From Escherichia coli (lineage in GTDB: Bacteria; Pseudomonadota; Gammaproteobacteria; Enterobacterales; Enterobacteriaceae), in the NCBI RefSeq assembly GCF_002854065.1, contig NZ_CP024147.1: DNA of 64,000 nt, one strand, 5' to 3'. Positions 29,601-35,600 of this stretch are shown in pieces. The position numbers are program-made. Numbering within the stretch: position 1 is the first letter of the stretch; the number at the start of each line of letters is the position of its first letter.

Positions 29601-32600
29601 GTCTCTGTCGCAGAAGATCACGTAAAAGCCGGCGAAAGCACAACCGTGACGCTGGTGGCGAAAGATGCGCATGGCAACGCTATCAGTGGTCTTGCGTTGT
29701 CGGCAAGTTTGACGGGGACCGCCTCTGAAGGGGCGACCGTTTCCAGTTGGACCGAAAAAGGTAACGGTTCCTATGTTGCTACGTTGACTACAGGTGGAAA
29801 GACGGGCGAGCTTCGCGTCATGCCTCTCTTCAACGGCCAGCCAGCAGCCACCGAAGCCGCGCAGTTGACGGTCATCGCCGGAGAGATGTCATCAGCGAAC
29901 TCTACGCTTGTTGCGGACAATAAGGCTCCGACCGTCAAAACGACGACGGAACTCACCTTCACCGTGAAGGATGCGTACGGGAACCCGGTCACCGGGCTGA
30001 AGCCAGATGCACCAGTGTTTAGCGGTGCCGCCAGCACGGGGAGTGAGCGTCCTTCAGCAGGAAACTGGACAGAGAAAGGTAATGGGGTCTACGTGTCGAC
30101 CTTAACGCTGGGATCTGCCGCGGGTCAGTTGTCTGTGATGCCGCGAGTGAACGGCCAAAATGCCGTTGCTCAGCCACTGGTGCTGAACGTTGCAGGTGAC
30201 GCATCTAAGGCTGAGATTCGTGATATGACAGTGAAGGTTAATAACCAACTGGCTAATGGACAGTCTGCTAACCAGATAACCCTGACCGTCGTGGACAGCT
30301 ATGGTAATCCGTTGCAGGGGCAAGAAGTTACGCTGACTCTGCCGAAAGGTGTGACCAGCAAGACGGGGAATACGGTAACAACCGATGCGGCAGGTAAAGC
30401 CGACATTGAGCTGATGTCAACGGTTGCCGGGGAACACAGTATCGCGGCCTCAGTGAATAATACTCAGAAGACGGTTACGGTGAAATTTAAAGCGGATTTC
30501 AGTACCGGTCAGGCGACCCTGGAGGTTGATGGCAGCGCGCCAAAAGTGGCAAACGACAATGATGCCTTTACGCTGACGGCAACGGTTAAGGATCAATACG
30601 GCAACATTCTTCCTGGCGCTGCGGTCGTCTTTAATCTGCCTCGGGGCGTCAAACCGCTTGCAGACGGTAATATCATGGTGAACGCCAACGAGGAGGGTAA
30701 AGCGGAACTGAAAGTGGTTTCCGTGATTGCCGGAACGTATGAGATCACGGCGTCGGCAGGGAATGACCAGCCTTCGAATACGCAGACTATAACGTTTGTG
30801 GCCGATAAGGCGACCGCAACCGTCTCCGGTATTGAGGTGATTGGCAACTATGCACTGGCGGACGGCAATGCCAAACAGACGTATAAAGTTACGGTGACTG
30901 ATGCCAATAACAACCTGTTGAAAGATAGCGACGTGACGCTGACTGCCAGCCCGGCAAATTTAGTTTTGACTCCCAATGGGACGGCGAAAACTAATGAGCA
31001 AGGACAGGCTATTTTCACCGCCACGACCACTGTCGCAGCGAAATATACACTCACGGCGAAAGTGAGTCAGGCCGACGGTCAGGAATCGACGAAAACTGCC
31101 GAATCTAAATTCGTCGCGGATGATAAAAACGCGGTGCTCGCCGCATCTCCAGAACGTGTAGATTCTCTGGTGGCGGACGGGAAGACTACTGCAACAATGA
31201 CGGTTACTCTGATGGCGGGAGTCAATCCCGTAGGAGGAAGTATGTGGGTCGACATTGAGGCTCCGGAAGGAGTGACGGAGAAGGATTATCAATTCCTGCC
31301 GTCGAAGGCTGACCATTTCTCAGGTGGGAAAATCACGCGTACATTTAGTACCAGCAAGCCAGGTGTCTATACGTTCACATTCAACGCACTGACGTATGGC
31401 GGGTACGAAATGACGCCTGTGAAGGTGACAATTAACGCCGTTGCTGCAGAGACTGAAAATGGCGAGGAGGAGATGCCATAATTTGAATAGTATGAAAGTT
31501 ACGATCTAATAAAGAATAATGGTGTTGAAATATTCAACGCCATTATTCACTGAATACCTTGCCTGATACTGATTAAATAGTATCAGGCAAGGATAAAACT
31601 CAATAAGAGATAGTGACCAACTAAACCGGACGAACGGGAATAAAAATTTCGCAAACAACATCATTGCCATCCTTTTCTACGAAATCTTCATTGTAATAAA
31701 AGCGCTCAATATCGCTGCCGTTCACTCTGGCTAACCCCCTGGCAGGCAACTCTATCAGATAGATGTTACGCACCCAGTCAGGATAATTTTCCCAGTTTCC
31801 TTCATAACGGAAAGAGGCATAAAGTCCTCGGGTCGTTGTCCACTCTTTTGGCATGTCAGCATATTCACATACCGTACCGGCAAAAGTTTCAACCGTGAGC
31901 AAATCGACCGATTTTGTTGACGGTTCAAACGTGGAGACGAAATAGATATCCGTCTTAAAATTATTCATACATCTGGCTAAATGATGACGTCGCAGTTTGA
32001 CTTCTTCATCCGGTGATTTATTCGACACTTCAATATCATATTTAAATGAATTGCCAAAAATAGGTGTCTCAGGAAAGTTGACTAATCTACACTCCGTCTT
32101 TTGCTGTTGACGTATTAAAAAAGAAGGGAAGATATTTACGAGATCCCAATAATCACGGTGGCGGTATACACGGGGAGAGCAGCCGAATAACTTTTTAAAT
32201 TCGCGGCTGAATGACTGCTGTGAATCAAAATGCAAAGAGAGTGCAATATCAAGCATAGATTTCGCGGTGAGCCGGACAAGAATGGCGGCACGACAAAGCC
32301 TTCGTTTGCGAATGTATTCTCCCAAAGACACATGCATGAAATTTCGGAACAGAAGCTGGATGTTGCGTCTGCTGTAGCCAGATTTCTGTGCGATATCTTC
32401 GATTGAAATAGGGTGCTCAAGATTGCACTCAATCCACTCCAGGAGCTGCTGTAGAATCTTCTGCCTGATCATCACATTCTCCGTTAATTCTTTGTCATAT
32501 CGCACATTTTCGTTATGCCCTGGGCCCTAAGTGTATCAAAAACAGCAAGGCCCAAGGCAAAAGCACTGGTAGCGTCTGCTTCGTTGCCCCGAAAATAGAG

Positions 32601-35600
32601 AGGTTTCAGTCCTACATTATTAATGAATTTTTTGCATAAGTGATATCAAAATCCACATACTAATTTGAGGTTACGTTTTAACGTAGACTCATTGTTCATG
32701 CCTAATGGAGGGACTGACAGTGGAATTTTCCGTATTAAGTAACAATCTGAAAATGCCGATGATGGGATTTGGTGTTTTTCAGGTTACCGATAAAAACGTG
32801 TGCAAACAGTCAGTGTTGAACGCTATCCGCACGGGGTATCGACTCATCGACACTGCAGCGGTATACGGTAATGAAGATGCCGTCGGTGAAGCCGTTCGTG
32901 AAGCTATATCCGAAGGTTTATGTACCCGAGAAGAGTTATTTTTAACGTCTAAATTGTGGGTGCAGGATATGTTGAATCAGGATACGGCAGCAGCAGGTAT
33001 TGAAGCATCATTAAAAAAATCGGGACTAGAATACTTCGACCTCTATTTATTGCATCAGGCTATGCGCGATTATTTCAGTGCGTGGCGTGCACTCGAAGAT
33101 GCCTATGAAGAGGGCAAATTAAAAGCGATTGGGGTTTCCAATTTCTATCCTCATGTTCTGGCGAACTTTTGTGAAACGGTAAGAGTTAAACCGATGGTCA
33201 ACCAGGTCGAGTTGCATCCCTATTTTGCCCAACCAGAGGCGCTGGCAACCATGAAGTATTATAACGTACAGCCTGAAGCATGGGCTCCGTTAGGTGGTGG
33301 ACGACATAAACCCTTTGAAAATAATCTGCTTCAGAGTATTGCAGATGCCCATCAAAAATCGATTTCTCAAGTCATTCTGCGTTGGAATATTCAACGGGGA
33401 GTGGTCGTTATTCCGAAATCGACACATCAACAGCGTATCGAAGAAAATTTTGCTATCTGGGATTTCTCACTGACAGAGAAAGAAATGGCACAAATTAGTT
33501 CGCTTGATTTGGGTTATGTTGGGGAGTCGGTAAAACATTTTAATCCTGAATTTGTTCGTGGTTGTCTTGCTGTAAAAATACATGATTGATATTAATCATG
33601 TATTTTACCTGAGACGACAAGAATCTTTTAACAGGGGAGTGATATTGATCTTCACTCTGTCATATCTCCGGTAATATGGCGTCAGGCTTCATCATCAGAA
33701 AGGGGGCCTGACGCCTGAAAAAGTGAACAACAGACAGTGTTCGGATTATCAATATTCAGTTTTTAACGTTGAACTGGATTCATTACTGCGTTGTTTAAGA
33801 ATTTCCCGCGCCGAATCTGCCATTATCATGACAGCACCTGCCAACATCAGAGTATCTTTCAATACCAAGCGACCAGCACCGGATAAATAAGGGAAACCAT
33901 GATGAGCGTCACCCAATGCGGGTACCCATGCCTCCGGGGTGGTGATTAAAAATGAGAGTGTTACCAACGGTGTGGTAAATGCCATCAGCCCTCCCAATAA
34001 ACCTAACCAGCGATTGACAGGATTAGCCAAAACCAGCAGAGCAATAATCACCTCCACGACGCCAAGACCGTTGGAAAAACCATAGGTATTATTGGCCGAT
34101 TGCCATGCCCTTGCTTCTGGTTTGTATTCGCCTTCGTGAGTCAGATACTGTTTATAGTCTTCCGGGTGTTCATAAAAGAACGACATTAGTGGACTGTTTG
34201 CGACGAATGGTGTAATGCTGTCTGCCTCGTAAGGGACAAACTTTAATAACCCAATCCACATAAAAACAATCGCAATACTCAGACGAATCAATGTCAGGCC
34301 AATTTTATCTCCCCGACTTAACAGGTGCAGGTATTTTTCCATTGTGAACATCCTTATTTATACAATACTGCTGTTGCGGTTGAATTATTATCAATTCGCA
34401 TCGATGTGACTTTCCAGGATGAAGCATTATATTTTCTGGCTATATCAGCAATGGCATCCTCCAGAACTGTCGGTGATGCTGATACTGACGAGACGCTGAT
34501 ATGTTTCAGAATTATTTTATCATCTGCATTGGTGGAAAATGCCATAACGCCAGATAATAGTGTTGCAAATAAAACGGATTTTTTAAACATATAAAATACC
34601 ATCAATGAAGTGATTAAGAAGTTATAGAGTAACAGGGAATTAATAAGATTCTTTTCTCTGAGACGCCAGAATATTTGTTCTGGCGTCTGATTTTGAGTTT
34701 ATTTGACTAATGAAAATAGATCATTGAGTGATTCGCTCATCGACGGATGAGTAAATATCTGATCGCGTAATATGCTATAAGGCAGCCCGGCATCCATCAC
34801 CATTTTCACTATATTAATCATCTCGTGGGAGTCAACACACAGCAGTGATGCCCCTAATATACGTTGGGTTTTATTATCAACAATCGCTTTTAATACCCCA
34901 CGGGTATCGTTCATCACTCTGGCGCGCGGAATTGCAGCTACAGGCAATGTCACCACCTGAATATCAGCACCACTCTCTCTGGCTTGTTCTTCTGTCATAC
35001 CAACCCTGGACAGGGGCGGTGTCATAAATACGGAATAAGGCACATTTTTCCGATCATCAGTACTACGTTTGCCTTCACCCAGTAACTCATCACGTACAAT
35101 GCGGTAATCATCCAGTGATATGTAAGTAAATTGCAGCCCGCCGGTAACATCTCCCATCGCCCAAATATTGTCTGCGGTGGTATGTAATCGCTTGTCAACG
35201 ACAATTGCCCCGCGCTCGTTTACTGCGATACCGGCATTTTCTGGATGTAACGAAGCGGTAGCCGGTTGACGACCGGAAGCTATTAACAGTGCATCCACCG
35301 CCAGTTGGGCGTGCTCGCTATGCACTTGCACTTGATTTTCATGGTGACAGATTCGCTCCACATGGGCATTGAGGATAATATCGACGCCCTGATCGCGTAA
35401 AATCGTCGCGATATTATCAGCAATATCCCGATCTTCCCGAGGCAAAAACAGCGAAGCTGCTTCTAAAATGGTTACCTTGCTGCCAAAATTAGCGAACATA
35501 GAGGCGAACTCAACGCCAATATATCCGCCGCCCAAAATACCTAAATGCCCAGGCAATTCTTTTAGATTAAGTAATCCGGTGCTGTCATATACACCAGGCG

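What the first reader, a model, noticed from the sequence alone, without database searches (positions are those of the whole stretch)
31621..33589. ykgA regulator and adjacent aldo-keto reductase appear intact here
Seen: a full-length 294-aa AraC/GyrI-like regulator and a divergent 294-aa aldo-keto reductase with all motifs present. From memory the K-12 counterparts are annotated as disrupted, and crl is likewise intact here with no IS1 in it. Together with the near-complete eaeH this suggests the strain retains ancestral versions of loci decayed in K-12.
Basis: partly seen in the sequence, partly recalled or inferred. Interest (0 to 1): 0.3.

Follow-up and report, generated by a model that had tools for sequence, protein, structure and literature searches.

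The report
Intact ykgA and neighbouring reductase genes
This E. coli strain carries working-looking copies of a Rob-like regulator gene (ykgA) and a neighbouring aldo-keto reductase gene that are broken in the laboratory strain K-12; this is an ordinary, already annotated strain difference.

Summary
ykgA (31621-32505, minus strand) and an aldo-keto reductase (AKR; 32705-33589, plus strand) are uninterrupted, divergently arranged ORFs with strong domain matches.

K-12 MG1655 annotates both as pseudogenes:
- **ykgA (b0300):** cut by IS3A with loss of 3,713 bp.
- **AKR (ykgQ, b4631):** gutted by two internal deletions of 587 and 100 bp.
- **crl:** intact here; split by IS1I in K-12.

The wider interpretation is only partly right:
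- The ykgA truncation occurs in 312 of 5,426 complete genomes; the two full-junction examples listed are lab strains.
- The AKR double deletion is a common polymorphism, found in 2,092 genomes (39%), including BL21 and O104:H4.
- The AKR is full length in 2,933 genomes.
- The related species E. whittamii and Escherichia sp. E1V33 carry both genes intact, so the intact state is ancestral.
- This strain has decay of its own: fdeC and ykgL are frameshifted, and the pao-ecp-matA segment is missing next to IS1 copies.

YkgA is a Rob paralogue with a changed first recognition helix. Its conserved neighbour in other genera is fdeC, not the AKR. This is known, ordinary biology of low interest.

The parts
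31621..32472 (-). ykgA coding sequence (283 aa plus stop): an AraC-type N-terminal DNA-binding domain and a C-terminal GyrI-like domain. The longest ORF extends to a GTG at 32505 (294 aa).
   Evidence: ORF; Pfam; full-length alignment to Rob. RefSeq and K-12 annotated start. GGAG 6 nt upstream of ATG 32472.
32473..32719 (.). ykgA-AKR divergent intergenic region (247 bp). The ~130 bp nearest the AKR are conserved in E. whittamii and E. sp. E1V33, which carry a 146-bp insertion in the middle. It contains the palindrome TACGTT-TT-AACGTA at 32672-32685.
   Evidence: Alignment A1. No sigma-70 consensus site and no marbox within 2 mismatches.
32720..33589 (+). Aldo-keto reductase coding sequence (289 aa plus stop, GTG start after GGAGG at 32707-32711). 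The longest ORF starts at ATG 32705 (294 aa). Catalytic tetrad D44, Y49, K78, H112.
   Evidence: RefSeq start. Nearly all full-coverage orthologues listed are 289 aa.
28105..31817 (.). 3,713 bp absent from K-12 and replaced there by IS3A. It covers the fdeC 3' part, the fdeC-ykgA spacer and the last 65 codons of ykgA.
   Evidence: blastn of the window against NC_000913.3. K-12 features. K-12 YkgA' is 218 native aa plus 10 IS3-encoded aa.
32734..33320 (.). First AKR segment missing in K-12 and BL21 (587 bp, AT microhomology at the junction). It removes the whole catalytic core.
   Evidence: Global alignment; BL21 has the same junction; the junction is found in 2,092 genomes.
33361..33460 (.). 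Second AKR segment missing in K-12 and BL21 (100 bp), flanked by the 9-bp direct repeat GATTTCTCA at 33361-33369 and 33461-33469.
27229..31481 (+). fdeC (eaeH) inverse-autotransporter adhesin gene. It is full length but split into two ORFs (27229-29037 and 29004-31481) by a 4-bp deletion near 28989. It lies tail to tail with ykgA.
   Evidence: Also annotated 'frameshifted' in the near-identical strain CUWW06.
647..1048 (+). crl, an intact 133-aa ORF. The K-12 IS1I insertion site is unoccupied.
33749..34351 (-). rclC, the first gene of the rclCBA operon, which flanks the AKR on the right (context only).

Best explanation
**What is shown.** The window carries the undisrupted form of the E. coli fdeC-ykgA-AKR-rcl neighbourhood.
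- ykgA encodes a two-domain paralogue of Rob, with a MarA/SoxS-type double helix-turn-helix domain and a GyrI-like small-molecule-binding domain.
- The divergent gene encodes a 289-aa DkgA/YtbE-type aldo-keto reductase with a complete catalytic tetrad.
- Both evolve under purifying selection where intact.

**What happened in K-12 (shown).**
- K-12 lost the ykgA C-terminus and most of fdeC in an IS3A-associated 3.7-kb deletion. This junction is found in 312 of 5,426 complete genomes; the two full-junction examples listed are lab strains.
- K-12 also carries an AKR remnant (ykgQ) made by two internal deletions. That allele is shared by about 39% of complete E. coli genomes, so it is a common polymorphism that predates K-12.
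- Sister Escherichia species have both genes intact, so the intact state is ancestral.

**How the genes probably work (inferred, not shown).**
- YkgA probably acts as a monomeric, ligand-responsive activator like Rob. Its first recognition helix is changed (SRRNIQLLF instead of SKW[HY]LQR[ML]F), so it probably reads a site other than the marbox.
- The AKR is probably an NADPH-dependent carbonyl reductase.
- The two genes are probably independent neighbours rather than an obligate regulator-target pair.
For: - **ORFs and domains:**
- **K-12 annotation and breakpoints:**
- **Population counts in 5,426 complete genomes:**
  - AKR full length in 2,933.
  - K-12-type AKR junction in 2,092.
  - ykgA at >=80% coverage in 4,636.
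  - IS3A::ykgA junction in 312.
- **BL21(DE3):** ykgA intact, with the same AKR deletions as K-12.
- **Outgroups:** Escherichia sp. E1V33 and E. whittamii carry fdeC-ykgA-AKR intact.
- **Selection:** dN/dS against the outgroups is 0.10-0.16 for ykgA and 0.06-0.07 for the AKR.
- **Recognition helices:** helix 3 differs from SoxS, Rob, RamA and MarA, while helix 6 is conserved.
- **Independence of the two genes:**
  - YkgA orthologues at 63-66% identity have no AKR neighbour.
  - AKR orthologues at 81-85% identity in Klebsiella, Vibrio and Salmonella salamae have no AraC-type neighbour.
Against: - Coverage of >=80% in megablast does not prove an open reading frame in every counted genome.
- The genome collection is biased towards lab and clinical strains.
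- The locus is mosaic. fdeC 3' and the ykgA C-terminus are BL21-like (<=1% different), whereas the intergenic region and AKR are O157-like (2/247 and 2/585 differences). The intact AKR here could therefore have arrived by recombination rather than by unbroken vertical descent.
- No expression or binding data exist for the full-length YkgA or for this AKR in anything I could read.
- The one dedicated paper (Martin, Gillette, Rosner 2000) is not in the held library.
- The divergent arrangement and the conserved AKR-proximal intergenic sequence within Escherichia leave a local regulatory link possible.
Confidence: 0.9

Rival explanations
1. YkgA and the AKR form a dedicated divergent regulator-target pair. 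YkgA would sense a small molecule through its GyrI-like domain and activate the AKR promoter. The analogy is AraC-type YqhC with yqhD-dkgA (recalled from memory).
For: - The genes are divergent across 247 bp.
- The arrangement, and the ~130 bp of intergenic sequence nearest the AKR, are conserved in E. whittamii and E. sp. E1V33.
- No consensus sigma-70 promoter lies in the spacer, which fits an activator-dependent promoter.
Against: - The pairing is confined to Escherichia. Orthologues of each gene elsewhere lack the other.
- 2,092 genomes have the AKR deleted, while ykgA is retained at >=80% coverage in 4,636 and is still an intact 283-aa ORF in BL21.
- Escherichia strain E69 has ykgA without the AKR.
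Confidence: 0.25
2. YkgA is functionally tied to the adhesin FdeC, for example as its regulator, and the AKR is a bystander. K-12's single IS3A-associated deletion would then have removed a functional unit.
For: - The tail-to-tail fdeC-ykgA pair is present in E. coli, E. whittamii, E. sp. E1V33 and E69.
- It is also present around YkgA orthologues of 63-66% identity in Salmonella enterica (L017), L018 and L025, next to FdeC-like proteins of 46-62% identity.
Against: - Synteny alone can reflect co-transfer on one island.
- The genes are convergent, not divergent or co-transcribed.
- One 64% orthologue (L022) has no such neighbour.
- By the title of Easton et al. 2014, as cited in PMC6714894, fdeC is regulated by H-NS and temperature; I saw no mention of YkgA in the passages I read.
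- BL21 keeps ykgA intact after losing most of fdeC.
Confidence: 0.15
3. One reading: the strain as a whole preserves ancestral gene content that K-12 has lost.
For: - ykgA, the AKR and crl are intact here and disrupted in K-12.
- A 6.3-kb segment (20381-26677) is present here and missing from K-12 and BL21.
Against: - fdeC is frameshifted and ykgL is frameshifted.
- The K-12 segment 297322-311820 (pao, ecp, matA) is absent, with three IS1 copies and a prophage remnant in its place.
- The closest complete genome, CUWW06, even has IS1 inside this AKR.
Confidence: 0.2
4. The two ORFs are open by chance but no longer functional, that is, they are early pseudogenes.
For: - The AKR is dispensable in 39% of complete genomes.
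- The function of YkgA was stated as unidentified in PMC2064960.
Against: - dN/dS is well below 1 for both genes.
- All catalytic and DNA-binding motifs are intact.
- AKR orthologues are 80-87% identical across Enterobacteriaceae and Vibrio.
Confidence: 0.05

Closest known systems
E. coli K-12 MG1655 pseudogenes ykgA (b0300) and ykgQ (b4631), with eaeH (b0297) and crl (b0240)
   Same: Same loci in the same order. ykgA nucleotides 1-655 are 98.5% identical, the intergenic region differs at 6 of 247 positions, and the AKR 3' 129 bp are 99.2% identical.
   Different: - K-12 lacks the last 65 codons of ykgA, where IS3A sits.
- K-12 lacks 687 bp of the AKR, and its reading frame stops after 5 codons.
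- K-12 lacks 3.4 kb of fdeC.
- K-12 has IS1I in crl.
Rob (right origin-binding protein), MarA/SoxS/Rob subfamily of AraC/XylS regulators
   Same: Same two-domain architecture, aligned over residues 5-281 (E 2e-39). Recognition helix 6 (DSQQSFSREFKK) is conserved.
   Different: - It scores 196 bits against the RobA equivalog cut-off of 380, so it is a paralogue.
- Helix 3 reads SRRNIQLLF instead of SKWHLQRMF. The positions of MarA W42 and R46, which contact the marbox (recalled from the MarA-DNA structure 1BL0), are R and L here.
- No marbox lies in its own upstream region.
DkgA/DkgB, B. subtilis YvgN and YtbE, and T. maritima TM1009 (1vp5) type aldo-keto reductases
   Same: (alpha/beta)8 AKR fold family, with the D-Y-K-H tetrad and cofactor motif. 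E-values are 1.5e-84 to 1vp5, 1e-73 to YtbE (3b3d) and 7e-58 to DkgA (1mzr).
   Different: It scores 233 bits against the DkgA equivalog cut-off of 425, so it is not the DkgA orthologue. It belongs to its own tightly conserved 289-aa orthologue group. The substrate is unknown.
yqhC / yqhD-dkgA aldehyde-response module of E. coli (recalled from memory, not tested here)
   Same: An AraC-family regulator transcribed divergently from a carbonyl-reducing enzyme gene.
   Different: YqhC has a different sensor domain, and its link to its targets is experimentally established. For YkgA and the AKR no link is shown, and cross-genus synteny argues against an obligate one.

Membership tests
AraC/XylS family, MarA/SoxS/Rob subfamily (Rob-like two-domain type) | N-terminal ~100-aa domain with two helix-turn-helix motifs | tested here: met
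   HTH_18 at 2.5e-19 and HTH_AraC at 1.6e-15. SoxS 1.1e-27, Rob 4e-27, RamA 4e-22 and MarA 1e-18.
AraC/XylS family, MarA/SoxS/Rob subfamily (Rob-like two-domain type) | C-terminal GyrI-like small-molecule-binding domain, as in Rob | tested here: met
   PF06445 at 1.8e-9 over residues 138-292 of the 294-aa ORF. The alignment to Rob runs to residue 281 of 283.
AraC/XylS family, MarA/SoxS/Rob subfamily (Rob-like two-domain type) | Orthology to Rob itself (NCBIfam RobA equivalog cut-off) | tested here: not met
   196 bits against a cut-off of 380, and 174 bits against 426. It is a paralogue.
AraC/XylS family, MarA/SoxS/Rob subfamily (Rob-like two-domain type) | Marbox-reading residues of recognition helix 3 (SKW[HY]LQR motif) | tested here: not met
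   YkgA has SRRNIQLLF, whereas all four solved relatives have SKW[HY]LQR[ML]F.
AraC/XylS family, MarA/SoxS/Rob subfamily (Rob-like two-domain type) | Activation of mar/sox/rob regulon promoters | not testable with these tools
   This needs reporter or in vitro transcription assays. PMC2064960 states that the targets of YkgA had not been identified.
Aldo-keto reductase superfamily | Aldo_ket_red (alpha/beta)8 domain covering the protein | tested here: met
   PF00248 at 1.7e-42 and 146 bits, covering profile positions 18-289 of 291.
Aldo-keto reductase superfamily | Catalytic tetrad Asp-Tyr-Lys-His | tested here: met
   D44, Y49, K78 and H112 lie in LIDTAAVYGNE, TSKLW and LYLLHQ. These align to the same conserved motifs of 1vp5 and 4mhb.
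Aldo-keto reductase superfamily | DkgA or DkgB orthology (2,5-didehydrogluconate reductase equivalogs) | tested here: not met
   233 bits against a cut-off of 425 for DkgA, and 164 bits against 327 for DkgB.
Aldo-keto reductase superfamily | NAD(P)H-dependent carbonyl reduction | not testable with these tools
   This needs an enzyme assay.
Loci intact here but pseudogenes in K-12 MG1655 | The K-12 counterpart is annotated as a pseudogene and is demonstrably shorter or interrupted | tested here: met
   ykgA, ykgQ, eaeH and crl are flagged as pseudogenes in NC_000913.3. Breakpoints were mapped.
Loci intact here but pseudogenes in K-12 MG1655 | The disruption is specific to the K-12 lineage | tested here: inconclusive
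   For ykgA the IS3A junction is in 312 genomes, and the two full-junction examples listed are lab strains. For the AKR this is not met: the junction is in 2,092 genomes from many sources.

The most novel reading that the evidence does not exclude
YkgA is the dedicated partner of the FdeC adhesin rather than of the reductase. A Rob-like, ligand-sensing regulator would travel with an inverse-autotransporter gene across Escherichia, Salmonella and other enterobacteria. This could link a small-molecule signal to FdeC expression, which would explain why fdeC is silent under laboratory conditions.
Probability: 0.12. Interest if true: 0.4.

Novelty: already known. Interest (0 to 1): 0.1.

Why it matters
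It matters little beyond bookkeeping. It confirms that K-12 is a poor reference for this neighbourhood. Anyone studying YkgA (the fourth MarA/SoxS/Rob-type protein of E. coli), FdeC or this reductase should use a strain such as HS, Nissle or O157 that has them intact.

Two points could guide an experiment:
- The 'K-12 pseudogene' ykgQ is really a species-wide deletion allele, present in 39% of complete genomes.
- YkgA's conserved neighbour in other genera is fdeC, not the reductase.

Tried and rejected
- **Marbox search** (AYNGCACNNWNNRYYAAAYN, up to 2 mismatches). It found 20 hits in the window against 19 expected by chance, and none in 32473-32719. No evidence for a Mar/Sox/Rob-type site.
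- **Sigma-70 and terminator scan of 31400-33800.** The counts were at chance level and nothing fell in the intergenic region.
- **The dedicated ykgA paper** (Martin, Gillette, Rosner 2000, PubMed 10972816) is not held. What I recall of its content is therefore not used as evidence.
- **Literature on ykgQ** gave only an AtoC motif-prediction paper that lists a ChIP-positive site in the ykgA-ykgQ spacer of K-12. I did not pursue it.
- **Genome-contig scan with YkgA** returned only 6 loci. E. albertii, E. fergusonii and E. marmotae were not returned, which may reflect the exact-peptide patterns rather than true absence.
- **Regulator-target hypothesis by cross-genus synteny.** Not supported.
- **First guess at the ykgL frame** was off by one base. 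One search corrected it.

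
Full report
**1. What is at the coordinates**

The window is E. coli chromosome running from frsA-crl to yahK. ORF listing shows 31621-32505 on the minus strand (294 aa, GTG start) and 32705-33589 on the plus strand (294 aa, ATG start). These are divergent and separated by about 200-250 bp.

The minus-strand product carries HTH_18 (2.5e-19), HTH_AraC (1.6e-15) and a GyrI-like domain (1.8e-9). The plus-strand product carries Aldo_ket_red (1.7e-42).

One correction concerns length. 294 aa is the longest ORF in both cases.
- For ykgA, RefSeq records (including K-12) start at ATG 32472. That start has GGAG six bases upstream and matches the N-terminus of Rob, giving 283 aa.
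- For the AKR, RefSeq starts at GTG 32720, eight bases after GGAGG. This gives 289 aa, the length of nearly all full-coverage orthologues listed.

**2.

NC_000913.3 annotates ykgA (b0300), ykgQ (b4631), eaeH (b0297) and crl (b0240) as pseudogenes. Alignment maps the events.

| K-12 change | Window coordinates | Consequence |
|---|---|---|
| IS3A replaces 3,713 bp | 28105-31817 | Removes most of fdeC and the last 65 codons of ykgA; K-12 YkgA' is 218 native residues plus 10 IS3-encoded residues |
| AKR deletion 1, 587 bp, AT microhomology | 32734-33320 | Removes the catalytic core |
| AKR deletion 2, 100 bp, between two GATTTCTCA repeats | 33361-33460 | Together with deletion 1, the K-12 frame stops after five codons |
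| IS1I in crl | window crl at 647-1048 | crl is an intact 133-aa ORF here |

**3. How widespread each state is**

Counts are from 5,426 complete E. coli genomes.

| State | Genomes |
|---|---|
| AKR covered at >=80% | 2,933 |
| Exact K-12 double-deletion junction in the AKR | 2,092 |
| ykgA covered at >=80% | 4,636 |
| K-12 IS3A::ykgA junction | 312 |

- Genomes with the AKR deletion junction include BL21(DE3), O104:H4 HUSEC2011, and human, animal and water isolates.
- The two genomes listed with the full IS3A::ykgA junction are laboratory strains.
- BL21(DE3) has an intact 283-aa ykgA, the same AKR deletions as K-12, the same 6.3-kb deletion upstream of fdeC, and its own fdeC deletion without IS3.

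The ykgA truncation is thus confined to a small set of genomes. The AKR loss is an old, common allele and is not K-12 decay.

**4. Direction of change**

Escherichia sp. E1V33 and E. whittamii carry fdeC-ykgA-AKR in the same arrangement. Their ykgA is full length (283 or 285 aa) and their AKR is full length (289 aa aligned without gaps, 92-93% identical). The intact state is therefore ancestral.

dN/dS against these outgroups is 0.10-0.16 for ykgA and 0.06-0.07 for the AKR. Both genes are maintained by selection where they are intact.

**5. What the genes are**

YkgA aligns along its whole length with Rob (2e-39). Its DNA-binding domain aligns with SoxS, RamA and MarA. It scores far below the RobA equivalog cut-off (196 bits against 380), so it is a paralogue.

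PMC2064960 names YkgA alongside MarA and Rob as sharing considerable homology with SoxS, and says that its function and targets were not identified. Recognition helix 6 is conserved. Helix 3 reads SRRNIQLLF where all four solved relatives have SKW[HY]LQR[ML]F. No marbox lies in its upstream region. I infer an altered DNA specificity.

The AKR has the tetrad D44/Y49/K78/H112. Its closest solved relatives are 1vp5, 4mhb and YtbE/YvgN. It is not the DkgA orthologue (233 bits against 425). It belongs to a very conserved 289-aa group that is 80-87% identical in Klebsiella, Enterobacter, Kluyvera, Salmonella salamae and Vibrio. NADPH-dependent carbonyl reduction is an inference from family membership.

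**6. Are the two genes a functional pair?**

Within Escherichia the divergent arrangement and the AKR-proximal half of the spacer are conserved. Outside Escherichia the pairing disappears.
- YkgA orthologues of 63-66% identity have no AKR nearby.
- AKR orthologues in Klebsiella, Vibrio natriegens and S. salamae have no AraC-type neighbour.
- Thousands of E. coli genomes keep ykgA after losing the AKR.

I therefore rate an obligate regulator-target relationship at about 0.25.

The conserved neighbour of YkgA is instead an FdeC-like inverse autotransporter lying tail to tail. This is seen in Salmonella enterica (L017), L018, L025 and strain E69. It may reflect co-transfer or a functional link, and is the only mildly new lead.

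**7. Is the strain generally 'ancestral'?**

It is not.
- fdeC is frameshifted by a 4-bp deletion near 28989.
- ykgL has two 1-bp deletions.
- K-12 coordinates 297322-311820 (yagP, paoABCD, yagU, ykgJ, ecpEDCBA, matA) are absent. A lambdoid prophage remnant and three IS1 copies sit at 5057-18394.
- The closest complete genome, CUWW06, has IS1 inside this very AKR.
- The locus is a mosaic. fdeC 3' and the ykgA C-terminus are BL21-like and 10-19% different from HS, O157 and Nissle. The spacer and AKR are nearly identical to O157.

**8. Verdict**

The K-12 pseudogene status is curated knowledge, and intact copies are the majority state in E. coli. This is already known and of low interest.

Noticed in passing
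window 27229-31481 (indel near 28989): fdeC/eaeH is full length but carries a 4-bp deletion relative to strain AR_0085. This splits it into ORFs of 602 and 825 aa, so the adhesin gene is a pseudogene in this strain.
   Followed up: yes
window 5057-18394: CP4-6 is absent. In its place is a lambdoid prophage remnant with three IS1 copies (10196-10964, 15789-16556, 17623-18394). The K-12 segment 297322-311820 (yagP, paoABCD, yagU, ykgJ, ecp operon, matA) is missing, and the last IS1 sits at the junction.
   Followed up: partly
window 18687-18912: ykgL has two 1-bp deletions relative to K-12 and is frameshifted. This is a locus intact in K-12 but decayed here.
   Followed up: yes
window 20381-26677: A 6.3-kb segment is absent from K-12 and BL21. 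It encodes an NADH-dependent flavin oxidoreductase, an alpha/beta hydrolase, two LysR regulators and two further aldo-keto reductases. The K-12 ykgP pseudogene lies at the deletion junction.
   Followed up: partly
window 58303-63567: A cluster absent from K-12 between yahJ and yahK. It encodes a small 146-aa protein and an ABC sugar-type transporter (periplasmic binding protein, ATPase, two permeases).
   Followed up: no
L007 1-4621 and L008 (Escherichia sp. E1V33, E. whittamii): In L007 (E1V33) the AKR is followed directly by ykgE, ykgF and ykgG, so the rclCBA-rclR cluster that separates them in E. coli is absent. No RclC or RclA match was found in L007 or L008.
   Followed up: partly
window 31200-32472, compared with L013, L014, L015 and L016: There are two deep haplotype classes across fdeC 3' and the ykgA C-terminus. 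They differ by 10-19% and give 283-aa or 285-aa YkgA. The window is BL21/K-12-like there but O157-like in the spacer and AKR, implying a recombination breakpoint inside ykgA.
   Followed up: partly
L017, L018, L025 (YkgA orthologues of 63-66% identity): Each lies tail to tail with an FdeC-like inverse-autotransporter gene and has no AKR neighbour. The conserved partner of ykgA in other genera is fdeC.
   Followed up: partly
L010 and L011: Metagenome-assembled contigs labelled Collinsella sp. and Bacillota bacterium carry E. coli-type fdeC-ykgA sequence (YkgA 100% and 88% identical). They are probably mis-binned Escherichia DNA.
   Followed up: no
window 32672-32685: A perfect palindrome TACGTT-TT-AACGTA lies about 35 nt upstream of the AKR start. 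Only the right half is conserved in the outgroup species.
   Followed up: no
window 55765-55850: A short ~85-bp element matches several places in the K-12 yahH and codA-cynR regions at 90-98% identity, so it is a repeat (probably a REP-type intergenic repeat).
   Followed up: no
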